Shown: piece by piece, positions 10,355-53,144 of the stretch
Position numbering within the stretch: position 1 is the stretch's first letter
Layout: each line of letters begins with the position of its first letter
Assembly (NCBI GenBank): GCA_965203905.1
Contig: CBDBDQ010000005.1
Coordinates: 2,336,001 to 2,400,000, forward strand
Source: Spirochaetia bacterium
Lineage (GTDB): Bacteria > Spirochaetota > Spirochaetia > SZUA-6 > Bin103
Reading direction: 5' to 3'
DNA: 64,000 nt
Translations under genes and position numbers: made by a program
Notes under the pieces: generated by a model
Seen by the model: the letters and a program-made list of their open reading frames with translations, nothing else
Told to the model about the DNA's origin: nothing
Databases searched by the model: none

Positions 10355-11062
10355 ATGGACACCCTCGCACTGCTGCGCGCGGCGAGCACCGCCACCCTGA
10401 CCACCGTGCTCAAGGAACACGGGCTGCGCAACACCTTCATGCACGGGGTGGCGCCGCTGCGGCCCGACTGCCGCGTGGCCGGCCCGGCCTTCACCCTGCG
10501 CTACATACCGGCGCGCGAGGACCTGGACGACCGCCCGGTCGACAACCTCACTGATGCCCAGCGTGTCGCGATCGAGCGCGTGCAGCCGGGGAGCGTGTTC
10601 GTGATCGACGCCCGCGGCGACACCCGCGCCGGCACCCTCGGCTCCATCCTGGCCACCCGGCTGCAGCACCGCGGCGCCGCCGGCATCGTCACCGACGGCG
10701 CCTACCGCGACACCCCGGCCATCCGCGACCTCGCCATGGGCTGCTACGCGGCGGCGATGAACGCCCACACCAACAAGACCATCCACCACCCCAGCGAGTA
10801 CCAGGTACCGATCGCCTGCGGCGGCGTGGCCGTGTTCCCGGGCGACATCATTGCCGGCGACGGCGAGGGAGTGGTCGTGGTCCCGGCTCACCTCGCCGCC
10901 GAAGTGGCGGCCGCCGCCGCCGAGCAGGAACGCCTTGAAGAATTCCTCCTGCGCCGGGTCCAGGGCGGCGCCAGCATCGTCGGCACCTACCCCCCGGACG
11001 AGGACGTGCTCCGCGCCTACCGCGAATCGCAGCGTCCCGAAACCGGCGAGGGATCGCGTTGA
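10355..11062 (+). CDS. RraA/HMG-aldolase family protein
   Basis: GPAFTLRY, VIDARG, GIVTDGAYRD and VFPGDIIAGDGEGVVVVP motifs. Confidence 0.88.
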   Translation: MDTLALLRAASTATLTTVLKEHGLRNTFMHGVAPLRPDCRVAGPAFTLRYIPAREDLDDRPVDNLTDAQRVAIERVQPGSVFVIDARGDTRAGTLGSILATRLQHRGAAGIVTDGAYRDTPAIRDLAMGCYAAAMNAHTNKTIHHPSEYQVPIACGGVAVFPGDIIAGDGEGVVVVPAHLAAEVAAAAAEQERLEEFLLRRVQGGASIVGTYPPDEDVLRAYRESQRPETGEGSR

Positions 11063-12150
11063 GCGCAGACCACCGCGACCATCCCGAGATCACGTCGATC
11101 AGCATTGAGGGATTCAAGAGCATCGAACGTATCAAGGATCTGCCTCTGCGCCCGATCAACGTCCTCATCGGCGCGAACGGCTCGGGCAAGTCCAACTTCA
11201 TCGGGGTGTTCTCGTTGCTGCAAGCTAAGCGTGACAACACGGTCGACGAGTATGTCGAGCGATCAGGGGGCGCCGACCGGATACTGCACTTCGGGTCGAA
11301 GATCACGGACAAGCTGAAAGTTGTAGTCAACTTCAGCGGCAATGCGTGGTTCGAGTTGGCCCTGGTGGTAGCCGAAGACGATCGCGTGGTGGTCACGAGC
11401 CGCGTGCCATTCGGTGGCAGAATGTTGATAAGAGAGGGCAGCACCGGTGTGACCCAACTCATGCGGGATCAACTCCAGCGGTTCCGTGTTTACCACTTCC
11501 ACGACACCGGTCCGACCGCGCCGATGAAGCGGACTGCAGATATTCACGACAACCGGTATTTGCGGGAAGACGGATCCAATCTTGCCGCATTGCTCTACCG
11601 TCTGCTGCACAAGGAGCAGACGCCGTACGAGATGATCGTGCGTACCGTACGGCTGGTAGCTCCCTTCTTTGACGATTTCGTGCTCAAGCCGCTGGCGCTG
11701 AACGAGGACAAGATCCGCCTGCAGTGGCGCCACCGCGGCTCGGACGCCTATTTCGACGCCTCATCGCTGTCGGATGGTTCGCTGCGCTTCATGGCTTTGG
11801 CGACCCTGCTGCTGCAGCCGGCCAACCTCCAGCCCTCCATCATTCTGCTGGACGAGCCCGAACTGGGCCTGCATCCATACGCGATCACCATCTTCTGTTC
11901 GCTCGTAAAGCAGTGCTCCGCCGACAGGCAGATCGTGCTCGCTACCCAGTCGCCGCTGGTTGTGGACCATTTCGAGCCGGAGGACGTGCTCGTGGCCGAT
12001 CGCGTCGATGGCCGAACCGAGCTCACACGTCTTGAGCGGGACAGGTTGGCCAAGTGGCTGCAGGACTACAGCCTCGGGGAGCTCTGGCAGAAAAACGAAC
12101 TCGGCGGCCGTCCCGCCCCTGAGGCACCCGGGAAGGATCGCACCGGGTGA
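11059..12150 (+). CDS. AAA_21/COG4637-type ABC-like ATPase
   Basis: GANGSGKSN Walker A, LSDGSLRF signature, ILLDEPELGLHP and ATQSP. Confidence 0.9.
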   Translation: MSADHRDHPEITSISIEGFKSIERIKDLPLRPINVLIGANGSGKSNFIGVFSLLQAKRDNTVDEYVERSGGADRILHFGSKITDKLKVVVNFSGNAWFELALVVAEDDRVVVTSRVPFGGRMLIREGSTGVTQLMRDQLQRFRVYHFHDTGPTAPMKRTADIHDNRYLREDGSNLAALLYRLLHKEQTPYEMIVRTVRLVAPFFDDFVLKPLALNEDKIRLQWRHRGSDAYFDASSLSDGSLRFMALATLLLQPANLQPSIILLDEPELGLHPYAITIFCSLVKQCSADRQIVLATQSPLVVDHFEPEDVLVADRVDGRTELTRLERDRLAKWLQDYSLGELWQKNELGGRPAPEAPGKDRTG

Positions 12151-12265
12151 GCAGATCGGCCTGCCCGCCATGCGCGCCGCATGCCCCGGATTCCGGCGTT
12201 GGCTGGAACGCCTGGAGAGGCTGGGACCTGACCACCGATCGGCCTCCAGCGCCACAAGCTGCTGA
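12147..12265 (+). pseudogene. Remnant of DUF4276-like partner gene
   Basis: A GTG overlapping the ATPase stop is followed by only a C-terminal-type segment EQIGLPAMRAACPGFRRWLERLE, in a different frame. Confidence 0.65.
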
Positions 12266-12534
12266 CGGGTGCGAAGTTGCTCGGAGCCATCCTCCCGATG
12301 CTCCGAATTGAACCCTACTGGCGTCACATCCCTGGTTCCCGGCAGTGACTCTCGCCACGCCTCGTAGAGCACCACGGGGACCAAGACTCATTCGTATCGC
12401 TCGGCCCGACCCTCAAGTCTCTGCAAACGACGATCGGCCTTGGTTTCCGGGTCGGCGAGGATCAGCCGATCTAAGATCTCCGCCATCCCAGAGAAGATTC
12501 CGCTGCTGTCTGCACTGCAGACCATCGACAGTAA

Positions 12535-12587
12535 TGTATGATTTTATATCAGTCAACGTATGATACGTTTATATCCTGTATGATTTT
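12535..12587. promoter_or_regulatory. Putative operator array upstream of the XRE-ImmA gene
   Basis: GTATGAT at 12536, 12558 and 12578. Perfect 7-1-7 palindrome AACGTAT-G-ATACGTT at 12555-12569. TTTATATC occurs twice. Confidence 0.55.
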
Positions 12588-12624
12588 CCGTCGTGGGAAC
12601 GCCGCACGACTGGTAGGGAGAGGG

Positions 12625-13866
12625 ATGATGGAGGCATGGGAGCTTGGGAGCAGGTTGCGTTTGGCGCGTGAGGCAAGGGGCCTCAGTCAGCAAGCAGTGG
12701 CTTCCGAGCTTGGGGTGCCGCGGACTGCCATCGGGGGACTGGAGGCCGGTAGTCGTTCGGTGTCGACGCTGGAGTTGACCAGACTCTCGGAACTCTACCT
12801 TCGACCTGTCGCTGATCTCCTACAGGGAGGAGCGCGGGACGAGGATGAGGACGTCGTGGTGGCCCTGCTTCGCGCGGCACCCGGGCTGGAACAGGATACG
12901 GCGATGGGCGACCAAGTGGCCCGGTGTGTCAGCCTGTGCCGTGAGGGGGTCAGGCTGGAGCGCCTGCTCGGCGCCGAAGTTCGCTCCGGTCCGCCGAGCT
13001 ACCAGGCTCGGGTACCTCGTTACTCGGGAGAAGCCGTGGCGCAAGGCGAACAGACCGCGGAACAGGAGCGAAGGCGCCTTGGCCTCGGCGACGGGCCCAT
13101 CTCCGACATCGCCGATCTGATTGCCTCGCAGGGGATCTGGGCGTCGGGAGTTGAGCTCCCCGACAAGATGTCCGGCCTGTTTCTACGGCACCCGAGCGTC
13201 GGGGTAGCGATTCTCGTGAATACAACGCATGCGCGCGGCCGAAAACGTTTCTCGTATGCACATGAGTACGCCCATGCCTTGCTTGACCGCGACCGGGACA
13301 TGGCGATTTCCAGCACGGACAACGCGTCCGAATTGGTGGAGACGCGCGCGAACGCATTAGCTGCGGCGTTCCTCATGCCGGGAACCGGGATCTACGGTGC
13401 GCTGCGAAGCCTGGACAAGGGCCTGCCGAGTCGGCAGCAGCAGACTGTCTTCGATGTTGCCACCGCGGGACGAATCGACGCCGAGTTGCGCTCGCCGGCC
13501 GGTTCCCAGCGCATCACGTACAAGGACGTCGCCATGGTGGCACACCACTTCGGGGTGAGCTACCAGGCGGCCGCCTATCGGTTGAAGAGCCTCCGCCACG
13601 TCTCCCATCCCGAGTCCCATGGCCTTCTCGGACAGGCGGACTTCGGGCGGGAGTATCTGAAAGCCCTCCGCATGTTCAGCGATGTTGGCGAACCCGAGCC
13701 CCATGACTACCGAGATCGAGAGCTCCGCAGCGAGATCACCCATCTTGCAATAGAGGCGTATCGCCGCGCGGAGATTTCTCGCGGTCGCATTCTGGAGCTC
13801 AGCAGGGCGCTGAGGATCCCCGGCGATACTCTGCTTCGTCTGGCTCAGGTGGCACGTGGGGACTGA
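12625..13866 (+). CDS. XRE HTH-ImmA/IrrE (M78) metallopeptidase fusion
   Basis: N-terminal HTH LRLAREARGLSQQAVASELGV. RKRFSYAHEYAH (HExxH) and ETRANALAAAFLMP. Confidence 0.92.
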   Translation: MMEAWELGSRLRLAREARGLSQQAVASELGVPRTAIGGLEAGSRSVSTLELTRLSELYLRPVADLLQGGARDEDEDVVVALLRAAPGLEQDTAMGDQVARCVSLCREGVRLERLLGAEVRSGPPSYQARVPRYSGEAVAQGEQTAEQERRRLGLGDGPISDIADLIASQGIWASGVELPDKMSGLFLRHPSVGVAILVNTTHARGRKRFSYAHEYAHALLDRDRDMAISSTDNASELVETRANALAAAFLMPGTGIYGALRSLDKGLPSRQQQTVFDVATAGRIDAELRSPAGSQRITYKDVAMVAHHFGVSYQAAAYRLKSLRHVSHPESHGLLGQADFGREYLKALRMFSDVGEPEPHDYRDRELRSEITHLAIEAYRRAEISRGRILELSRALRIPGDTLLRLAQVARGD

Positions 13867-26139: not shown

Positions 26140-27048
26140 TCAGGACCGGTCACTGGCGTTGACGAAGATCGCCACCGCCACCAGGAGCGCGCCCAGCAGC
26201 AGGCTCGGCCCCAGCGGATCGCCTACGATCCACCAACTCAGGACGGTGCCGGACAGCGGCGTGGCGAAGAACATCACGGTGAGCCGGCTGGCGCGGAAGC
26301 GCGCCAGAATCGTGGTCCAGGCGAGAAAGCAGAACCCGGCGACCACCACCCCCACGTAGCCGATGGCGAGGATGCCGCCGAGGTCGAAGGCGAAGCGCGC
26401 CTCCCGTTCCAGCAGCGGGCTCAGCGCCGCCGCCGCCGGCAGGCTGAGCAGCAACATCCAGAACAGCAGCTTCTCGGCGCTGACGGCGTGCAGCATCCGC
26501 TTCGAGACCGCGGTGCGCAGCCCCAGCAGGGCCGCGCTGGCCAGCACCGTGGCGCTGCCGAGCGCGGATCCCGACAGACCACCGGCCATCAGCTCGGGCG
26601 CGAAGGTCGCCACCACGCCCGCGAATCCCAGCAGCAGGCCGGCGGTGGTTCGCGCCGTGAGGCGGTCACCGGCGATCAGCAGGTGCGCGAACAGCGAGGT
26701 GAACAGGGGGTAGGTGCTCATCATCACGGTGGAGTGGGCCGCCAGCGTGAAGTGGGTGCCGACGTGCAGCGCGAGCACCTGCACCAGGAACAGGCCCGCC
26801 AGGGCCGCGAGGGGCAACAGCTCACCGCGCTGCAGACGCAGCGGGATGCGTCGCAGGGCGGCCCAGCCTCCGATCACCGCGACACCCAGCGCCAGCCGCA
26901 CCGCGGTGAGAGCGAACGGCGGCAGGGCGCGCAGGCCCACCTTGATGAAGACGGAGTTTCCTCCCCACAGCAGCGCCAGCAGCGTGACCAGCGCTACCAC
27001 GGCGGGGGTCGGCGCGAGGACATTGCGCGTTGGAGCAGAGAGGCTCAT
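26140..27048 (-). CDS. EamA/DMT-family transporter
   Basis: LLWGGN..IKVGL..LPPF motif and about 10 hydrophobic segments in two repeats. Confidence 0.88.
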   Translation of the reverse strand: MSLSAPTRNVLAPTPAVVALVTLLALLWGGNSVFIKVGLRALPPFALTAVRLALGVAVIGGWAALRRIPLRLQRGELLPLAALAGLFLVQVLALHVGTHFTLAAHSTVMMSTYPLFTSLFAHLLIAGDRLTARTTAGLLLGFAGVVATFAPELMAGGLSGSALGSATVLASAALLGLRTAVSKRMLHAVSAEKLLFWMLLLSLPAAAALSPLLEREARFAFDLGGILAIGYVGVVVAGFCFLAWTTILARFRASRLTVMFFATPLSGTVLSWWIVGDPLGPSLLLGALLVAVAIFVNASDRS

Positions 27049-27091
27049 GCGAGGTCGCTACCGGATTGTGCTTGTGGAGAAGGCTGACGCA

Positions 27092-28024
27092 TCAGCCGAG
27101 GTGTTCGCAACTCGTGATCAGATAGCGGGGCCGTCCGAGCCCTACGCGCCGCGCGTGGGCGTAAATTCTGACCGACACTCCCAGGATTCGATTGATATCA
27201 TTCTCACTTTCAAATGGAGCTACTTGACACGTGATTATCTTTCCGATTTCGTCTCTAAGAAACTCCGCATCGGTTTGGTCAACCAGGAATTCGGCGCGTC
27301 GGCTGTTGGGTAGAAATCCTTCGAACCGACCATCAATCACTACTTGATTTTCGCGAATGTTATCTACACTAAGGCGTTGTTCGCTACGTCTGACCTGGGC
27401 CGAATCGGAGAATCGAAACACGTTTCCTCTAAATTCCATTGCACATACAGCGTTCTGATCGGCTACGGTCTTGAGGAAGTTACGCATCGCACTCAATGCG
27501 CGCTGGTCAGACTCGGTGATCGCCTCCGAGAGGTCATCATCAGTCCTTATCGATGCTTCCAGGATAGCCTTGACTCTTTCCAAAGCTCGTTCTACGGGAC
27601 TCGGTTCCAGGGGGAGCATCGGCTGTTGTGACGCATCCTCAATCCGGAACCCGAATGATCCTCGTACTGTGTCGGTGATCAGGAGGCGATAGTTGTCGCT
27701 CTGAGGTACCACTCCACGAGAACCAAGGGTAGAGTGTTGGCTGGCTCCTACCGCATTTACAGTACTGGCAAACGCTTTCAGCGCATCGGCCACGAAGTCC
27801 GCATGGATCCCGCGATTACCCGATACAGGACTGCCCTGGAATGTCAGGCATGCGTCGATCTGCCGCGGAAGTCTTCCTGCGTAAGCAGCAAGTTCTGCTT
27901 CAACCTTGTTCCTGCGCCGCTGCAGGCTCATGCGGCTGATGACTTTATCGGAAGGTGTCTCGGCTATCAGCCTATCCAGAGCTCCCCGTTCCGAGAGGAG
28001 GTGTCGATATTCGTGAATGGTCAC
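27092..28024 (-). CDS. Hypothetical protein, partner of the upstream nucleotidyltransferase
   Basis: 310-aa intact ORF in an AT-richer segment, starting 3 nt after the upstream stop. Confidence 0.8.
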   Translation of the reverse strand: MTIHEYRHLLSERGALDRLIAETPSDKVISRMSLQRRRNKVEAELAAYAGRLPRQIDACLTFQGSPVSGNRGIHADFVADALKAFASTVNAVGASQHSTLGSRGVVPQSDNYRLLITDTVRGSFGFRIEDASQQPMLPLEPSPVERALERVKAILEASIRTDDDLSEAITESDQRALSAMRNFLKTVADQNAVCAMEFRGNVFRFSDSAQVRRSEQRLSVDNIRENQVVIDGRFEGFLPNSRRAEFLVDQTDAEFLRDEIGKIITCQVAPFESENDINRILGVSVRIYAHARRVGLGRPRYLITSCEHLG

Positions 28025-28027
28025 CGG

Positions 28028-28594
28028 CTACGCTCCTTCGTCCGAACTGACCTCAATCTCGTTTTTGGCAACCGCATCACCATCGCCCGCTAGGGTAACC
28101 TGCACGTAACCCTTCCAGTCGCCAGTCCGAGTGTGAGACCAGACACTATACCAGTACACGCACTGGTCTACCACGATTCGCAGGCTACCAGGATCCAGAA
28201 ACACGAAGTAAGAATCGACATTGAATTGTTCTGCTGTGCTATCTCCGTCGAATAAGTGTGGATAATCACGAAGCAGTCTGCGTTCGTCATAGCCTTCCGG
28301 AAAATGAGCGAAAGTCACAACATCGACATCTTTCGGAGGGCGGTTCCGCAATGTTTCTACGTCTTCTACGAAGCTACCGTCAATCCATTGGAAACCATCG
28401 ACGAGACCAGCTTCATGTAGCTTCCTGCGAAAATCCAGAAAGCCTCGTATGATATGACGCCGGTCTCCCGTGTTGGCAAATCTCGTGACAAAATCAACCA
28501 GCGAAACTACATACGGGGACCGGTAGTGAGACGTAGGTTCGTCCGCGTCGTTGGCCGGAAGAACACCCTCGTGAGTCCAGTTTGGAAGTGGCAT
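28028..28594 (-). CDS. Minimal Pol-beta-type nucleotidyltransferase (DUF6932-like)
   Basis: FQWIDGSFVE...PKDVDVVTF (GS-x-DxD) plus a third Asp in VDSYF. N-terminal PNWTHEGVLP..RSPY, C-terminal SHTRTGDWKGY. Confidence 0.8.
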   Translation of the reverse strand: MPLPNWTHEGVLPANDADEPTSHYRSPYVVSLVDFVTRFANTGDRRHIIRGFLDFRRKLHEAGLVDGFQWIDGSFVEDVETLRNRPPKDVDVVTFAHFPEGYDERRLLRDYPHLFDGDSTAEQFNVDSYFVFLDPGSLRIVVDQCVYWYSVWSHTRTGDWKGYVQVTLAGDGDAVAKNEIEVSSDEGA

Positions 28595-28900
28595 GTCGAC
28601 CATCACAGGTGCGGGAGACGGTCCTTCCGGTTGCCTGAGACCGGACGCGGACCGTCTCACCGTTAACTACAGCATACCAACGAACAACGGAATGGCAACT
28701 GGCTGGATCCAAGAAGATCCACCATCCATTGGCTCTCCGGCGGAAGGAGGAGGCAAGCGCGCTCGACGGGATCCGGGGATCTCGCGGCGTGCAGATCCAC
28801 TGGTGCTCCTGACGGCGGCGGCGGATCTCGATAGCGGCATTCAAGGTGGTAGCCTACGCTAACGCCCACGAGGCCGCCGATCAACGCCCGCGTCGCGGGT

Positions 28901-28970
28901 AGCGTTGACGCAGCGTTGACGCAGCGTTCACGCAGTGTTTATGACTACGGCTCACCGCGTGAGGTATCCT
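28901..28970 (+). promoter_or_regulatory. Four 11-bp direct repeats (putative OmpR/PhoB-type box) and -10 element of the RND operon
   Basis: AGCGTTGACGC, AGCGTTGACGC, AGCGTTCACGC, AGTGTTTATGA at 28901-28944. TATCCT at 28965-28970. Confidence 0.7.
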
Positions 28971-29043: not shown

Positions 29044-32000
29044 GTGAAGATCGTCTCGCTGGCGACGCGCCGCCCCGTTTCGGTGGTGGTGTTCTTCGTC
29101 GCCCTGGTGATCTTCGGGCTGATCTCGTTCCGGGAGCTGCCGGTCGACCTGCTCCCCGACCTGTCGTTCCCTACCCTGACCATCCGTACCGAATACCCGG
29201 GTGTCGCCCCCGCCGACGTCGAGACCTTCGTCACGACCCCGATCGAGGATGCCGTAGGAATCGTCTCTGGCCTGGTGGATATCTCCAGCATCTCCCGTGC
29301 CGGCCTCTCCGACGTGATCATGGAGTTCGCCTGGGGCACCGACATGGACTTTGCCGCCATCGACGTGCGCGAGCAGCTCGCCCAGCTGGCGCTGCCGGCA
29401 GGCGCCGAAGATCCGATCCTGCTGCGCTTCGATCCCGCCCTCGACCCGATCATGCGCATCAGCGTCGGCAGTGCGGTTCCCGGCACCGTGGGGATTGCCG
29501 ATCAGGCGGGGCTGCGACTCCTGGCCGACCAGTCGATCAAGCAGCGCCTGGAGAGCATCGACGGCGTGGCGGCGGCCATCGTCGCCGGCGGCGTGGAAGA
29601 GGAGATTCAGATCAACGTCGACCAGAGCCGCGCGGCGCTGCTCGCCATCTCCCTGTCCCAGATCGCCAGCCGGCTGCAGCGTGAGAACGTGGACGTCACC
29701 GGCGGCAGCATCGCCGACGGCGCCGCGGAGTACGTGGTGCGCGTGCTGGCTCGGTTCGCCGACCTCGACGAAATCGGCCGCATCGTGGTGGGCGAGGTAG
29801 GCGACGTCCAGGTGCGGCTGCAGGATCTGGCCGAGGTGCGCAGCGGCTACCAGGAGCAGTCCACCATCACCCGCACCAACCGCATTCCGAGCGTCGAGAT
29901 CGCCATCCACAAAGAGGCCGCCGCCAATACTGTCGCCGTGGCGCAAGCGGTACGGGGACGCCTGGGGGAGGTCGAACAGGAGCTTGAGGGGGTGGTCGAG
30001 GTGGAGCTGCGGGTGGTGTCCGACCAGTCGCGCTTCATCGAGCAGTCGATCCGTGACGTGATCCAGGCCGCCGTGCTCGGCGGGGTGCTGGCGATTGCGG
30101 TGCTCTACCTGTTCCTGCGCCGGCTGCGCAGCACGCTGGTGGTGGGGCTGGCGATACCCATATCGGTGATCGCCAGCTTCTTTCTCATGTTCCTGGGGGG
30201 TGTTTCCCTCAACATCATGTCGCTCGGCGGGCTGGCGCTCGGCATCGGCATGCTGGTGGACAGTTCCATCGTGGTGCTGGAGAGCATCGACCGCCACCGG
30301 GTTGCCGGCGCCGATCGCGTCACCGCGGCCCGTACCGGCGGCGCCGAGGTGGGCAGCGCGGTGGTGGCCGCGACCCTGACCACCCTGTGCGTGTTCATCC
30401 CGGTGGTGTTCGTCAGCGGCATCGCCGGGCAGCTGTTCGTGGACCCGGCACTCACCGTCACCTTCTCGCTGCTGGTCAGCCTGGCGGTTGCGCTGACGCT
30501 GATCCCGATGGCCAGCGCCGCAGGGTCGCGCATGGATCAGCCCGCGGCGCCGCCCGAGCCGCCGCCGGCGCCCGAGCCACACCCCGAGTCGGATGACGGC
30601 GAGGAGGCACCGCCGCGCGCCGTGCCGGCCGAGGATGTCGCCCGCGAGCTGCTCTCGGTGCGCGTGGCCGCGGCGCCGGGACGTGGCATCGTGGCGCTCA
30701 TCCAGGGGCTTGGGATCGTGCTGCGGGTGCTCATCACTCCGCTGATCTGGCTGTTCGAGCGCTCTTTCGGCGTTGTGACCGTGGTCTACCCGCGGGTGCT
30801 CGGGTGGGCACTCCGCCATCGTCTCGCGGTCATACTCCTTGCGCTCGTGCTGCTTGGCGGATCCCTGAGCCTGGTGCCGCTGCTCGGCACCGAGCTGATC
30901 CCCGAGATTCGCCAGGGCACCATCGTCGCCGACGTGGAGCTGGCGCCCGGCACGCCGGTGGCACGCACCGACGCCACCCTGGCGGAGATGCAGCGCCGTG
31001 CCGCCGAGCTTCCGGCCGTGGCGCAGACCTACGCCGTGGCCGGCTCATCGAGCACCGGCGAAGAGGTGCGCGAGAACAGCGGCCAGATCCTGATCGATCT
31101 GCACCCCGAGTACCGGCGCGCTGCCGAAGATCGCGCCCTGGCCCAGCTCCGCGGCGCACTGGCGGGGGTTCCCGGCGCCAGCGTCACGTTCGGGCGGCCG
31201 CCGCTGCTTACCTTCGATGCCGCCGTGGAAGCGCGCATCAGCGGCGCCGCGCCGACGGTGCTGGAACGTGCCGCGCAGGCGGTGGCAGAGCGCCTGGCAC
31301 GGGTTACGGGACTGGCCGACGTGAGCGCCCGTCTCGCCGGCACCAGTCCGGAGGTGGTGATCGACCTCAACCGCGCCCAACTGGCCGAGCTGGACCTGGA
31401 CGCCGAGGCGGTGGGGCAGATCGTGGCCTCCAAGCTGCAGGGCGAAGTGCCGACCGAGCTGGAACGTGGCAGGCAGGACGTGGCGCTCCGGGTGCGCACG
31501 CGCCCGGAGGATCGCGCCACCATCGAAGACCTGGCCGGCCTGATCGTCACCACCGTCGGCGACGTCCCGGTGCCGCTGTCGGCGGTGGCGGCGGTCAACG
31601 TGGCCGAGGGCGCCAACGAGATCCGGCGCGTCGATCAGCGTCGGGTGGTGCTGGTGACCGCCAACCTGGACGGGCGTGACCTGGGCAGCGTTACCGAGGA
31701 AGTGCAGGCGGTGCTCGATTCCGTGGCCGCGGAGTACGACGTCGGCGCCGAGCTCGCCGGCCAATGGCAGGACATGGTCGAGTCCTTCGCCAGCATGCAG
31801 CTCGCCCTGATCCTGGCGCTGGTGCTGACCTACCTGGTGATGGCGGCGCAGTTCGAGTCGCTGATACATCCCCTGATCATCCTGGCGGCAGTGCCGTTCG
31901 GACTGGTCGGCGTCGTGCTGACGCTGGCGATCTTCGCCGTTCCGGTGAGCGCCATCACACTGATCGGCGTGATCATGATGGCCGGCATCGTGGTCAACAA

Positions 32001-51228: not shown

Positions 51229-51445
51229 AGCAAGGCTGAGAATAGCGTGTTATTTAAGAGCGTACGCTACAGGCGGTTGATGCTACACTACTAGTTGTGG
51301 TGCATGATAGCGTTTGTCAAAGTGTTTATCCTTGGCGCACGGCGAGCCACACGAGCGCGGCCGCACTCGGCGGGCTGGGATACCATCGTTGCGTGTTGTC
51401 GCCTGCACTCGGTGGTGACGAGGCGTCGCAAATGGACCCGACGAA

Positions 51446-52321
51446 TTGAGATACGCATTGCCGAACAGTCTTCAGCATGATCTGGCCGGATTTCAAGTCT
51501 GTACTGAACTCTATGAGCGCACCAAAGATCGGCGTTTTGATGAAATTGAGATCGACATGCGCAGCACGACTTGGTTGGACGCCGATATGTGTGCAATTAT
51601 CGGTGCACTTCTCTACTATATTGGATCACGCTTGAATACGGTACGGCTTACAAACATAAACTCGCGAGTGCGTTCTGTTCTCTCGAAGAATGGATTTCTC
51701 ACCCATTACGGAGAAGAGAGGATACACGATCGTTGGGGTACGACAATAGCATATCAGAGATTCGACGTACAAGATGACAGATACTTTTCAGAATATATCG
51801 AGAGAGAGTTCATCCATCGCACAGAGATGCCAACGATGTCACTTGGTTTGTTGAAGAAATTCCGTGAGAGTATATTCGAGATTTTTAGCAACGCAGTATT
51901 ACACTCAAATAGCAGATTGGGAATATTCAACTGTGGCCAATACTCCCCTAATCGAGGTCAACTGAATCTTACGGTAGCCGATCTAGGCGTTGGAATGAAG
52001 AAGAATGTGGGCGACCATATTAGGATAGATATCGCGCCGGAGAAGGCAATTGAGTGGGCGACTCAAGAGCGGAATACTACTAAAATAGGCAGTGTTCCTG
52101 GAGGTCTCGGGTTGAAGCTTCTACGCGAATTCATCGACCTAAATCGAGGTTGTATTCAGATAGTGTCAGATGCAGGGTACTGGTGTCGGCAGAACGGCCT
52201 AACTACCATGCATAGGCTCCGACACCAATTTCCCGGAACAGTGGTGAGTGTAGAGATCAATACAACAGATACACACTCATATCGGTTACAGTCAGAAGTG
52301 TCACTCGAGGACATATTTTAA
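51446..52321 (+). CDS. STAS-like plus GHKL/HATPase protein
   Basis: EIFSNAVLHS (N box), VADLGVG (G1), TTK...GGLGL (G2) and FPGTVV. No HisKA domain. AT-rich segment. Confidence 0.82.
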   Translation: MRYALPNSLQHDLAGFQVCTELYERTKDRRFDEIEIDMRSTTWLDADMCAIIGALLYYIGSRLNTVRLTNINSRVRSVLSKNGFLTHYGEERIHDRWGTTIAYQRFDVQDDRYFSEYIEREFIHRTEMPTMSLGLLKKFRESIFEIFSNAVLHSNSRLGIFNCGQYSPNRGQLNLTVADLGVGMKKNVGDHIRIDIAPEKAIEWATQERNTTKIGSVPGGLGLKLLREFIDLNRGCIQIVSDAGYWCRQNGLTTMHRLRHQFPGTVVSVEINTTDTHSYRLQSEVSLEDIF

Positions 52322-52331
52322 GGCATTTAGA

Positions 52332-52711
52332 ATGAAAAATCGGATCACGATTTCGGCATTCGAGGTAATAGGAAGCCCCCTATGTGTGGCTTCCGCGGAC
52401 GGCCAGAAGATCTACGATCGTATCGCGCGAGTTTTGAAAGAGGGTGGATATGCTGCGGTGTCATTTCGAAATGTCAGTACCCTCACGTCTGCTTTTCTAA
52501 ATGCAGCCATTGGTCAGCTATATGGTGAGTTCGACAATGACACGATTCGCAGTAGGATAACGATAGAAGAGATGGAGCCGAACGACATCGCGCTATGAGG
52601 CGCGTAGTTGACACCGCCAAGGAGTACTTCAAAGATCCACAAAGGTTCGAGCAGGCTGTTCGTGATACATTGGGAAACGGAGATGGCGGCTCAGAATCCA
52701 ATATCAGTTGA
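52332..52711 (+). pseudogene. STAS-like (DUF4325) protein, frameshifted
   Basis: VASADGQKIY...SFRNVSTLTSAFLNAAIGQLY. Stop at 52598, but the shifted frame continues RRVVDTAKEYFKDPQRFEQAV to 52711. Confidence 0.75.
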
Positions 52712-53071
52712 GCACTATGTCTTCCAGGAAGATGACTGTGTATTCCTTGACGCCAATATCTGGTTGTTTGTTTATGGTCCACAGCAACCAAAAGACAAGA
52801 CGAGGATTTATTCGGATGCCCTTAGTCGTATCTTGAAGGCACGGTGCAGAATCTATATCGATATACTGGTAGTGTCAGAAGTAATAAACGCATTTGCAAG
52901 GATTAGATGGAGACTAAACGTATCCAGGCTACCCTTTAAGGTGTTTCGAAACAGCCCTCTGTTTGTACCGGTAGCTGAAGCTGGAAGCTCGTTACGGATG
53001 ACGGCGATTTTGATGCCCAAGGGATACCGGTCATAACCGCCAATTCCGGTCTGCTACGCTCGCGCACATGA
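52683..53071 (+). pseudogene. PIN-domain protein with internal deletion and frameshift
   Basis: VFLDANIWL...VVSEVIN...FKVFRNS. After about 52980 another frame gives KLVTDDGDF..IPVITAN; the middle of the domain is missing. Confidence 0.78.
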
Positions 53072-53144
53072 AATAGGGGCTCAACACTGAGTAGGCGCAT
53101 CGAAGCAGAATGAACGGGGAAGACAGACGATATGGATTGCGTGA

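What the first reader, a model, noticed from the sequence alone, without database searches (positions are those of the whole stretch)
27092..28594. Intact low-GC two-gene cassette: minimal nucleotidyltransferase plus a 310-aa protein of unknown function (candidate new defence or toxin-antitoxin system)
Seen: two ORFs 3 nt apart form a visibly AT-richer block inserted between EamA and the RND promoter. The first has the Pol-beta catalytic signature DGSF-x-DVD plus a third Asp. The second has an N-terminal helical hairpin, a central LTFQG...GSFGF segment and a beta-rich C-terminus (GRFEGFLP..RAEF), with no RxxxxH HEPN motif. Known: minimal NTases act as AMPylating antitoxins (MNT-HEPN), as toxins (AbiEii, MenT) or as signal synthases (CD-NTases). 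Inference: this pair matches none of those architectures and, unlike several neighbouring modules, is undamaged. It may be an undescribed NTase-effector anti-phage or TA module.
Basis: partly seen in the sequence, partly recalled or inferred. Interest (0 to 1): 0.75.

Follow-up and report, generated by a model that had tools for sequence, protein, structure and literature searches.

The report
Nucleotidyltransferase plus OB-barrel partner cassette
An intact, horizontally acquired two-gene cassette encodes a small nucleotide-transferring enzyme and a conserved partner protein of unknown function; it is a distant relative of a catalogued but never validated candidate anti-phage system, so it is a reasonable but unproven defence or toxin-antitoxin module.

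Summary
Two intact minus-strand genes, A (28028..28594/28606) and B (27092..28024), lie 3 nt apart in a GC 0.53 islet. The rest of the window has GC 0.68. The islet sits between an EamA gene and an AcrB efflux operon.

A belongs to Pfam DUF6932 (E 2e-29). It has the Pol-beta signature G77-S78, D93-x-D95 and D131 on the expected strands of a confident model. B has no Pfam family. Its model shows a helical hairpin, two alpha/beta modules and a C-terminal OB-like barrel. It has no conserved His and no membrane segment.

The pairing is strong:
- A lies directly upstream of B in 21 of 24 genome loci and in 5 of 5 plasmid records that hold B.
- The genes overlap by 4 nt in 18 of 23 loci.
- A and B distances co-vary (Mantel r 0.88).

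The pair is not wholly undescribed. All 37 A relatives tested match PADLOC candidate PDC-M63A. A minority of B relatives weakly match PDC-M63B and PDC-M32A. Both proteins also match PHROG families of unknown function. Homologous cassettes sit inside type I RM operons (3 loci), beside type IIG/ISP RM genes (4 loci), in a prophage-like region and on plasmids.

Function is untested. The one published PDC-M63 deletion gave no phenotype. My verdict is a divergent PDC-M63-type conflict cassette whose mechanism is inferred only.

The parts
28028..28606 (-). Gene A: DUF6932 minimal Pol-beta-type nucleotidyltransferase. It is 192 aa from GTG 28606.
   Evidence: Pfam PF22014 matches at E 2e-29 over the full model. 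PADLOC PDC-M63A matches at E 1e-9, and 37 of 37 relatives match it. phrog_9194 matches at 4.4e-31. G77 S78 D93 D95 are invariant and D131 near-invariant. The AF2 model has pLDDT 90.9, with GS after strand 71-76, DxD at strand 94-100 and D131 at strand 130-136.
27092..28024 (-). Gene B: 310-aa partner with no curated family. It has an N-terminal helical hairpin, two alpha/beta modules and a C-terminal OB-like barrel (about residues 220-310).
   Evidence: No Pfam, NCBIfam or PADLOC hit. phrog_18731 matches at 2.9e-53 over its full length. There are 119 related clusters in one library and 959 clusters at 50% identity in the other. The AF2 model has pLDDT 88.6. OB-fold proteins are the best PDB matches. 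DUF6575-type phage proteins are the best viral matches, at 5.8e-11.
28033..28039 (-). Shine-Dalgarno-like GAAGGAG, 8 nt upstream of the GTG start of B and inside the end of gene A.
   Evidence: Read directly from the sequence. It fits coupled translation of A and B.
28671..28698 (-). Sigma-70-like promoter match (TTGCCA, 16 nt, TATGCT, with TG) upstream of gene A.
   Evidence: This is a consensus match only: 2 sites were found against 0.9 expected in shuffles.
28615..28658 (.). Perfect 10-nt inverted repeat (GAGACGGTCC / GGACCGTCTC, 24 nt apart), between the promoter-like site and the likely start of A. It could be an operator or a leader hairpin.
   Evidence: I15. Its function was not tested.
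27050..28800 (.). Low-GC islet that carries the cassette. No integrase, tRNA or flanking direct repeats were found.
   Evidence: GC; no tRNA in the window; no convincing flanking repeats; flanking genes are EamA and AcrB.

Best explanation
The two genes form one horizontally mobile operon. It is a divergent member of the family that PADLOC lists as the candidate anti-phage system PDC-M63.

Shown here:
- A is a DUF6932 protein with an intact Pol-beta nucleotidyltransferase catalytic set.
- B is a conserved, soluble, His-poor protein. It has a coiled helical hairpin and a C-terminal OB-like barrel, and no recognisable catalytic motif.
- The two genes are almost always adjacent, usually overlap by 4 nt, and diverge in step.
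- The cassette is AT-richer than its host DNA everywhere I looked.
- It recurs inside or beside restriction-modification operons, in a prophage-like region and on plasmids.

Inferred:
- The pair acts as a protein complex in a biological-conflict role, either abortive infection or a toxin-antitoxin-like function.
- A is the only enzyme in the pair.
- My favoured mechanism is a type VII toxin-antitoxin-like control. A, encoded first, would transfer a nucleotide onto B and keep B's growth-arresting or sensing activity off until infection disturbs the balance. The invariant hydroxyls T117 and S123 in the Gly-rich 'T-x4-GSFGF' hairpin are candidate acceptor sites.
- I favour B as the core because B-like folds also occur with another partner (PDC-M32) and alone (DUF6575 proteins).

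I give about 0.7 to the classification as a PDC-M63-type conflict cassette with A as an active NTase. I give about 0.3 to the specific 'A modifies B' mechanism. The single confidence figure of 0.5 is for the statement as a whole.
For: NTase assignment. Pfam DUF6932 matches at 2e-29. G77-S78, D93-x-D95 and D131 are conserved in 37 sequences. They lie on the loop after strand 1, on strand 2 and on strand 3 of a pLDDT 90.9 model. The best PDB fold hits, though weak, are minimal NTases: 2rff, the MntA antitoxins 7ae9, 7bxo, 5yep and 6m6u, HI0073, CdnC and CCA-adding enzymes. The nearest named Atlas clusters are NTP_transf_2/Polbeta at 0.80-0.82.

Pairing.
- A is directly upstream of B in 21 of 24 genome loci. 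The three misses are a contig that starts 107 nt before B, a broken B, and a 60-aa fragment.
- All 5 plasmid records with B have A adjacent.
- The genes overlap by 4 nt in 18 of 23 loci.
- An SD-like site for B lies inside A.
- Mantel r is 0.88 over 21 pairs, and 0 of 5000 permutations reached it.

Link to PDC-M63.
- All 37 A relatives match PDC-M63A, best E 4.3e-16.
- Of 44 B relatives, 6 match PDC-M63B model PDLC04746 (best 8.9e-5), with one match each to two further PDC-M63B models.
- The PDC-M63B model is 306 positions long and aligns colinearly with B relatives.

Conflict and mobile context.
- The order hsdM-yhcG-hsdS-A-B occurs in L014 and L016, and hsdS-A-B in L011.
- Type IIG, Eco57I-like or type ISP enzymes lie within 5.5 kb in L002, L004, L005 and L013.
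- The P. aeruginosa copy sits after an integrase.
- The Bradyrhizobium plasmid copy sits beside a multiubiquitin/ThiF operon and an ImmA/IrrE gene.
- Cassette GC is below flank GC in 19 of 19 loci, and in the window.
- Both proteins have PHROG families.

B as the core.
- The Foldseek viral library gives near-full-length matches to a DUF6575 protein at 5.8e-11 and to two other phage proteins.
- The Atlas lists DUF6575 at 0.88.
- Vassallo et al. 2022 list DUF6575 among the domains of experimentally recovered E. coli defence systems (PMC9519451, passages read).
- B relatives also match PDC-M32A.
Against: - No experiment supports any function. The only published test of PDC-M63AB was a deletion in E. 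coli NILS69 challenged with 10 phages, and it gave no defence phenotype (passages read).
- The window's own B matches no PADLOC model even at E 10. The B to PDC-M63B link rests on weak hits (E 1e-3 to 9e-5) in a minority of relatives.
- Fold evidence for A is weak: no PDB hit at E <= 1e-3, and TM-scores are 0.26-0.39.
- The OB-like part of B also has no PDB hit at E <= 1e-3. It is not basic (K+R 12 against D+E 14), so nucleic-acid binding is not implied.
- B shows no known toxin domain, so calling it an effector is inference.
- Only 7 of 24 loci have an RM gene nearby, and I computed no background rate. Many copies, including the window's, sit among housekeeping or transport genes.
- The distance correlation shows co-inheritance, not physical binding.
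- The complex prediction could not be run.
Confidence: 0.5

Rival explanations
1. The NTase is the toxin, in the manner of MenT or AbiEii. A nucleotidylates tRNA 3' ends or another RNA and stops translation. B is its antitoxin or phage sensor, and holds A inactive until infection.
For: A is the only component with a catalytic signature. NTase toxins of this logic are established families (recalled knowledge of MenT and AbiEii). B's OB-like barrel and helical hairpin would suit a binding or sensing role. Translational coupling fits stoichiometric control.
Against: A shows no Pfam or PADLOC match to AbiEii/MenT-type (DUF1814) models, and no such structure appears in the 50 Foldseek rows shown. 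The nearest folds are MntA-type antitoxins. The gene order puts the enzyme first, which is the MntA-HepT order, not the AbiEi-AbiEii order (recalled). B-like folds occur with other partners or alone, which argues that B, not A, is the constant core.
Confidence: 0.25
2. Signal or oligonucleotide guard. A makes a nucleotide-derived product, either a second messenger or a short template-independent oligonucleotide. B's barrel binds that product, and phage factors that deplete or compete for it switch B on. This resembles Hailong-type logic (recalled).
For: A has an NTase core with all three carboxylates. B has an OB-like barrel whose fold neighbours include SSB, RPA, PriB and IF1.
Against: A is about 190 aa and lacks the extra domain of CD-NTases. 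It matches no CBASS model in PADLOC. B has no membrane segment or known effector domain. Its barrel is not basic, and its best barrel matches are metal chaperones (CusF/SilF) as much as SSBs.
Confidence: 0.1
3. The pair is not an immunity module. It could be a mobile-element accessory pair with another role, for example a phage or plasmid counter-defence factor or regulator, or a small-molecule NTase (ANT/Lnu-like) with a helper.
For: Both proteins belong to PHROG families. One copy lies in a prophage-like early region. The only PDC-M63 deletion tested gave no defence phenotype. Many loci, including the window, have housekeeping flanks.
Against: The pair sits inside type I RM operons, on the same strand directly after hsdS, in 3 loci, and lies next to type IIG/ISP enzymes in 4 more. 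That placement fits host defence better than counter-defence. Neither protein has a tblastn match in the 50,697 phage records. A has no match to aminoglycoside or lincosamide NTase families in Pfam.
Confidence: 0.12

Closest known systems
PADLOC phage defence candidate PDC-M63 (A+B), from the 'guilt-by-embedding' set of Payne et al., bioRxiv 10.1101/2024.01.29.577857 (passages read; its tables S3-8 could not be opened)
   Same: It is a two-gene, same-strand cassette. The first gene is a DUF6932-type protein: the window's A matches PDC-M63A at 1e-9 and 37 of 37 relatives match it. The second gene is about 306 aa, the same size as B, and aligns colinearly with some B relatives. The cassette is found embedded in type I RM operons.
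   Different: The window's B is not recognised by any PDC-M63B model, even at E 10, so PADLOC would not call this locus. The B clade here is large (959 clusters at 50% identity) and is mostly from Chloroflexota and other environmental phyla. PDC-M63 itself is unvalidated, and its deletion in E. coli NILS69 gave no phenotype.
MntA-HepT (MNT-HEPN) type VII toxin-antitoxin system
   Same: A small Pol-beta NTase is encoded first and is coupled to a downstream partner. MntA structures are among the best fold neighbours of A. This system is the template for my favoured 'enzyme modifies partner' mechanism.
   Different: The partner is not a HEPN protein. It has no Rx4-6H motif, no conserved His (at most 14 of 44 in any column) and no HEPN Pfam hit. 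A is about 190 aa, with extra conserved N- and C-terminal elements ('IPxW..GVLP', 'YWYSxWSHTR..WKGY') that are absent from the ~100-150-aa MNT chains listed.
AbiE (AbiEi/AbiEii) and MenA/MenT NTase toxin systems
   Same: They are two-gene conflict modules whose enzyme is a nucleotidyltransferase.
   Different: A matches no DUF1814/AbiEii-type model. The enzyme is encoded first, not second. The partner is not a wHTH antitoxin.
DUF6575 proteins (PF20215), a domain in one E. coli defence system recovered by Vassallo et al. 2022 (PMC9519451, passages read)
   Same: These are the best whole-length structural matches of B in the viral library (5.8e-11, 296 aligned columns). The Atlas gives a feature score of 0.88.
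   Different: No sequence-level match was found: 0 of 44 B relatives hit PF20215 at E <= 0.01. The TM-score is only 0.34-0.42 with rmsd above 13 A, so the domains are similar but arranged differently. DUF6575 proteins are about 370 aa. I did not see which named system carries the domain.

Membership tests
PADLOC candidate PDC-M63 | The first gene matches a PDC-M63A HMM. | tested here: met
   The window's A matches PDLC04744 at E 1.1e-9. All 37 relatives match it, best 4.3e-16, and 22 of 37 also match PDLC04745.
PADLOC candidate PDC-M63 | The second gene matches a PDC-M63B HMM. | tested here: inconclusive
   The window's B has no hit at E <= 10. Of 44 family members, 6 hit PDLC04746 (best 8.9e-5), and one each hits PDLC04747 and PDLC04749. 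The alignment is colinear with a 306-position model.
PADLOC candidate PDC-M63 | The two genes are adjacent on one strand, and instances are embedded in BREX, DISARM or type I RM systems. | tested here: met
   Adjacency holds in 21 of 24 loci. The pair is embedded after hsdS in L011, L014 and L016. The window's own copy is not embedded.
Pol-beta superfamily nucleotidyltransferase (minimal NTase) | An hG[GS] motif, then Dh[DE]h on the next strand, and a third carboxylate on a later strand. | tested here: met
   G77 S78 D93 D95 are invariant and D131 is at least 90% conserved. The strand positions agree. The GS to DxD spacing is 14 residues, just above the usual 9-13 (a range I recall).
Pol-beta superfamily nucleotidyltransferase (minimal NTase) | Significant fold or profile similarity to solved NTases. 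| tested here: inconclusive
   The top Foldseek hits are NTases, but the best E is 0.023 and the TM-score is at most 0.39. The profile search against PDB sequences found nothing (best E 0.93). Atlas scores are 0.80-0.82, which are leads only.
Pol-beta superfamily nucleotidyltransferase (minimal NTase) | Nucleotidyl-transfer activity. | not testable with these tools
   This needs a biochemical assay.
MNT-HEPN (type VII TA) | The partner is a HEPN protein with a conserved Rx4-6H motif. | tested here: not met
   The window's B has no Rx4-6H motif, and no His column is conserved (at most 14 of 44). There is no HEPN Pfam hit.
AbiE / MenAT | The NTase toxin belongs to the DUF1814/AbiEii family, with an upstream antitoxin. 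| tested here: not met
   A matches only DUF6932 and PDC-M63A. The enzyme is the upstream gene.
CBASS | A CD-NTase (about 300 aa or more) is paired with an effector that carries a cyclic-nucleotide sensor. | tested here: not met
   Neither protein hits a CBASS model in PADLOC. A is about 190 aa. CdnC appears only as a weak fold hit (E 0.16).
DUF6575 (PF20215) | Match to the Pfam model. | tested here: not met
   The window's B has no hit at E <= 1, and 0 of 44 relatives hit at E <= 0.01. Only structural similarity was found.

The most novel reading that the evidence does not exclude
B-like proteins (this family, PDC-M63B, PDC-M32A and DUF6575) form one unrecognised superfamily of non-enzymatic immune sensor-effectors built on an OB-like barrel. 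In this branch the protein is kept switched off by covalent nucleotidylation from a dedicated DUF6932 NTase. That would be a new type VII-like, 'nucleotide-latched' defence mechanism, widespread in environmental phyla and invisible to current defence finders.
Probability: 0.15. Interest if true: 0.75.

Novelty: new variant of a known kind. Interest (0 to 1): 0.5.

Why it matters
If the cassette is functional, it would add an NTase-based two-gene conflict module whose partner has no known domain. It would give a first function to Pfam DUF6932 and to a partner family of about 959 clusters at 50% identity that has no curated family.

It would also show that the PADLOC candidate PDC-M63 is the visible tip of a much larger family. 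That family is mostly environmental, with many members in Chloroflexota, and current defence finders miss it because the second component has diverged beyond their models.

It offers a tractable test of whether enzyme-modifies-partner control extends beyond MNT-HEPN. If no phenotype is found, it is simply another conserved mobile gene pair of unknown role.

Tried and rejected
- Profile searches of both families against PDB sequences: nothing for A (best E 0.93). For B the only hit was a BAG-domain match at E 0.009. The aligned region is predicted to be strands while BAG is helical, so I rejected it.
- RF1/RF2 whole-length Foldseek hits for B have rmsd of about 20 A and TM-scores of at most 0.17. 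I rejected them as noise.
- Search for longer fused forms of B (572-2000 aa): none found, which is weak evidence. One 484-aa relative with an HsdS domain (P0098) was not examined further.
- tblastn of A and B against 50,697 phage records: no match.
- The first related-loci run, with the 40-sequence alignment, failed for lack of a conserved stretch. I repeated it with 17 closer sequences, which biases the loci toward the closer, mostly Dehalococcoidia relatives.
- I tried to fetch Leptospira phage LE1 by a recalled accession to test the DUF6575-like hit by sequence. The record was not in the collection.
- The supplement of Vassallo et al. held no 'DUF6575', so the named system that carries the domain stayed unidentified.
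- Literature searches for DUF6932, PF22014, PF20215, phrog_18731 and phrog_9194 returned 0 papers. A search combining 'nucleotidyltransferase', 'OB-fold', 'anti-phage' and 'two-gene' also returned 0 papers.
- I found no flanking direct repeats, tRNA or integrase that would define how the islet was inserted.
- Decay patterns (which gene breaks first) could not be used. Frame breaks in L006 and L017 may be long-read assembly errors.
Full report
1. What is in the sequence

Two ORFs lie head to tail on the minus strand. Gene A runs from 28028 to 28660 (210 aa from the first GTG). Gene B runs from 27092 to 28024 (310 aa, GTG start).

The sequence shows the TAG stop of A at 28030-28028, three bases (CCG), then the GTG of B. 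A GAAGGAG Shine-Dalgarno-like site at 28039-33 lies 8 nt upstream of B's start, inside the end of A.

The true start of A is uncertain. Most homologues are 189-198 aa. The closest one (89% identity, 188 aa) starts at the equivalent of 28594.

GC falls to 0.49-0.57 across about 27000-28800, against 0.67-0.74 on both sides. The cassette is 0.530 and the rest of the window 0.679.

The flanks are an SDR gene and an EamA transporter gene (26140-27048, minus strand) on one side. On the other is an efflux operon: two AcrB genes, a HlyD-type adaptor, a histidine kinase and two OEP genes.

The window has no tRNA. I found no convincing flanking repeats and no integrase nearby.

2. Gene A

A matches Pfam DUF6932 (PF22014) at E 2e-29 over the whole model. 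It also matches phrog_9194 (unknown function) at 4.4e-31.

The word-index search found 282 related clusters. All 120 listed carry PF22014.

In an alignment of 37 of them (192-aa numbering), these residues are invariant:
- G77 S78 F79
- D93 and D95
- Y151 W152
- H158
- K165 G166

D131 is conserved in at least 90%.

The AlphaFold2 model has pLDDT 90.9 and pTM 0.88. It places GS directly after strand 71-76, the DxD on strand 94-100 and D131 on strand 130-136, with helix 47-65 before the first strand. This is the order of elements in the Pol-beta nucleotidyltransferase core (my knowledge of the fold).

Independent support is weak but consistent:
- Foldseek against the PDB gives no hit at E <= 1e-3. 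Its best hits are minimal NTases: 2rff at E 0.023, MntA antitoxins 7ae9, 7ae2, 7bxo, 5yep and 6m6u, HI0073 (1no5), CdnC, CCA-adding enzymes and FAM46C.
- The Atlas feature search, with DUF6932 excluded, returns NTP_transf_2/Polbeta clusters at 0.80-0.82, which are leads only.
- A profile search of PDB sequences found nothing.

I accept A as a divergent, probably active minimal NTase. The motif conservation is the main evidence for that.

3. Gene B

B has no Pfam, NCBIfam or PADLOC match. It does match phrog_18731 (unknown function) at 2.9e-53 over its full length.

The family is large:
- 119 clusters at E <= 1e-3 in the word-index search. Every one that has a source name is called 'hypothetical protein', and none carries a Pfam domain except one 484-aa protein with an HsdS domain.
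- 959 clusters at 50% identity in the exhaustive search, of which 668 have E <= 1e-10.

Nearly all listed members are about 300 aa. No longer fused forms were found, which is weak evidence.

In 40 sequences the invariant residues are R37, F62, G64, F77, T117, G122, S123, F124, F183, G236 and P239. Across 44 more diverse members the near-invariant set keeps R37, the 'GSFGF' hairpin, R175, G232, G236 and P239.

The model has pLDDT 88.6. Its elements in order are:
- a long helical hairpin (residues 3-48);
- a beta-beta-alpha-beta-beta module that holds 'LTFxGxPV' and 'GSFGF' (58-130);
- a helical and hairpin module (143-217);
- a five-stranded barrel (223-308).

Foldseek against the PDB has no hit at E <= 1e-3. 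Its best local matches (E 3e-3 to 3e-2, probability about 1, 85-100 columns) are OB-type barrels: CusF/SilF, SSB, RPA32, Rim1, PriB and IF1.

B has no membrane segment and no Rx4-6H motif. The family has no conserved His: at most 14 of 44 sequences share a His in any column. The barrel is not basic. B therefore looks like a non-enzymatic binding or scaffold protein.

Against predicted viral structures, three near-full-length matches stand out:
- a DUF6575 protein at 5.8e-11;
- a Leptospira phage LE1 protein at 8e-10;
- a Myoviridae protein at 2.9e-9.

Their TM-scores are only 0.34-0.42 and their rmsd is above 13 A, so the domains are similar but arranged differently. The Atlas also lists DUF6575 at 0.88. 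No sequence-level link to PF20215 was found.

4. Are the two genes a unit?

Yes. A scan of one genome per species returned 24 loci encoding B relatives. Most are Dehalococcoidia or other Chloroflexota MAGs. Others come from Acidobacteriota, Deltaproteobacteria, Desulfobacteraceae, Treponemataceae, Clostridia and Pseudomonas.

The sample therefore leans toward closer relatives.

tblastn with A finds a homologue directly upstream of B, on the same strand, in 21 of the 24 loci. The three misses are:
- L018, where the contig starts 107 nt before B;
- L020, where B is broken and no A is present;
- L024, which holds only a 60-aa fragment.

Among 72,556 plasmid records, B occurs in 5 and A in 7. All 5 records with B have A adjacent. 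The two A-only records are a Rhizobium copy followed by a transposase-like ORF (by my reading) and a 34-aa fragment.

The stop of A overlaps the start of B by 4 nt in 18 of 23 loci that hold both genes.

Pairwise distances of A and B over 21 pairs correlate at r = 0.88. None of 5000 label permutations reached that value. This shows co-inheritance as a unit. It does not show physical contact.

5. Context elsewhere

I scanned 209 greedily chosen ORFs within about 5.5 kb of the pair against Pfam. The ORFs came from 22 loci.

Embedded in type I RM operons (3 loci):
- L014 and L016 read hsdM, yhcG (DUF1016), hsdS, A, B.
- L011 reads hsdS, A, B.

Large type IIG, Eco57I/MmeI-like or type ISP enzymes close by (4 loci): L002, L004, L005 and L013.

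Other neighbours are ParE, HicB, a PLD-SNF2 helicase, HEPN_Swt1, a Fic_C/Schlafen-AlbA_2 protein, an HNH protein, an AAA_21/SMC ATPase, a transposase and NurA.

About a third of loci, like the window, have only housekeeping or metabolic flanks: L003, L007, L008, L009, L010, L012, L019 and L024. I did not compute a background rate, so I can show recurrence but not enrichment.

In P. aeruginosa record CP109682, the pair follows a site-specific integrase, among genes that I read as a prophage-like early region. On Bradyrhizobium plasmid pBs5S5b it lies beside a multiubiquitin/ThiF/DUF6527 operon, a VPA1262-family gene and an ImmA/IrrE gene.

The cassette is AT-richer than its flanks in 19 of 19 loci with flanks, two of them by less than 0.01, and in the window.

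6. Relation to what is catalogued

The window's A matches PADLOC model PDC-M63A at 1e-9. All 37 A relatives match it (best 4.3e-16), and 22 of 37 also match a second PDC-M63A model.

The window's B matches nothing in PADLOC, even at E 10. Among 44 diverse B relatives:
- 6 match PDC-M63B model PDLC04746 (best 8.9e-5);
- one each matches two further PDC-M63B models;
- 5 match PDC-M32A model PDLC04576 (best 1e-4);
- 1 matches a second PDC-M32A model, PDLC04575 (1e-6).

The PDC-M63B model is 306 positions long, which is B's size, and it aligns colinearly (residues 92-196 to positions 95-198).

I conclude that the pair is a divergent sister of PDC-M63. The A link is secure. The B link is probable but not proven.

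PDC systems are 145 untested candidates, derived from genes embedded in BREX, DISARM and type I RM systems (Payne et al., bioRxiv 10.1101/2024.01.29.577857; passages read). PDC-M63 is not named in that main text, and its supplementary tables could not be opened.

The only experimental mention I found is a deletion of prophage-borne PDC-M63AB in E. coli NILS69. It gave no change in infectivity for 10 phages, and the authors describe the system as never previously verified (10.1101/2024.12.20.629700; passages read).

PDC-M32 appears only as a PADLOC call in Sinorhizobium prophages (PMC12429752; passages read).

DUF6575 is listed among domains of systems recovered by functional selection in E. 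coli (PMC9519451; passages read). I could not see which system carries it.

Searches for DUF6932, PF22014, PF20215 and the two PHROG ids found no paper.

7. How it most likely works

What is shown:
- an NTase with a conserved catalytic set;
- a tightly coupled, co-inherited, non-enzymatic partner;
- a mobile, AT-rich cassette that recurs in restriction-modification operons and on mobile elements.

What is inferred:
- The two proteins form a complex with a conflict function.
- I favour a type VII toxin-antitoxin-like arrangement, in which A, encoded first as MntA is, nucleotidylates B and keeps it off.

The reasons for favouring that arrangement are:
- A's nearest folds are MntA-type.
- The enzyme-first gene order matches MntA-HepT.
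- B carries invariant hydroxyls in an exposed-looking Gly-rich hairpin (T117, S123).
- B-like folds are the constant element across PDC-M63, PDC-M32 and stand-alone DUF6575 proteins.

Against this, B has no recognisable toxic domain, and none of it has been tested.

The main rival is that A is a MenT/AbiEii-like toxin and B is its antitoxin or sensor. Lesser rivals are a nucleotide or oligonucleotide signal bound by B's barrel, and a non-immune mobile-element function.

8. Novelty and verdict

Its reading of a candidate NTase-based defence or TA module is reasonable. The 'undescribed' claim is overstated, because both proteins sit in existing unknown-function families and the pair is a divergent relative of a named but unvalidated candidate system.

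What is new is modest but real:
- the partner family is large, uncurated and invisible to the PADLOC models;
- it has an OB-like barrel architecture related in fold to DUF6575;
- the pairing with DUF6932 is near-obligate.

I rate it a new variant of a known kind, with interest 0.5.

Noticed in passing
window 28901-28933: Three tandem copies of the 11-mer AGCGTTGACGC (the third has one mismatch) lie in the intergenic region between the cassette and the AcrB start at 29044. They could be an operator for the efflux operon or for the cassette.
   Followed up: no
window 28615-28658 and 28671-28698: A perfect 10-nt inverted repeat with a 24-nt spacer lies in the leader of gene A. It sits just downstream of a sigma-70-like promoter match on the minus strand.
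   Followed up: partly
window 51300-53100: This is a second low-GC islet (GC 0.47-0.54) with three plus-strand ORFs: 51446-52321 (291 aa, no Pfam), 52332-52598 (DUF4325 STAS-like, 4e-16) and 52608-53036 (142 aa, no Pfam). It looks like another acquired small module.
   Followed up: partly
window 11059-13866: An AAA_21 ABC-type ATPase (11059-12150, 1e-29) is followed by an HTH plus Peptidase_M78 (ImmA/IrrE-like) protein (12538-13866). The stretch has GC 0.60-0.63, so it may be another mobile or defence-like module.
   Followed up: no
L006 7380-10200: A rearranged, partial second copy of the cassette (A residues 84-208, B residues 1-218) lies directly downstream of the first. The first A copy has frame breaks, which may be long-read assembly errors.
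   Followed up: partly
L022 6670-6870; L017 8001-8940; L023 8001-8552; L020 6816-7509: These are fragments or broken copies of B: an extra N-terminal fragment in L022, a frame break in L017, an internal deletion of about 120 residues in L023, and a broken B without A in L020. They suggest frequent decay of the cassette, but assembly errors cannot be excluded.
   Followed up: no
L014 5207-6025; L016 3603-4631: A YhcG/DUF1016 PDDEXK nuclease gene is embedded between hsdM and hsdS in the same two type I RM operons that carry the A-B pair after hsdS.
   Followed up: no
L026 6859-9691: A DUF6527, ThiF-family adenylyltransferase and multiubiquitin-domain operon lies directly downstream of the A-B pair on the Bradyrhizobium plasmid. 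A VPA1262-family gene and an HTH/ImmA-IrrE pair are also nearby.
   Followed up: no
P0098: A 484-aa B relative carries a type I RM specificity (HsdS, PF01420) domain. It is either a fusion or a mis-called gene spanning hsdS and B. I did not examine it.
   Followed up: no
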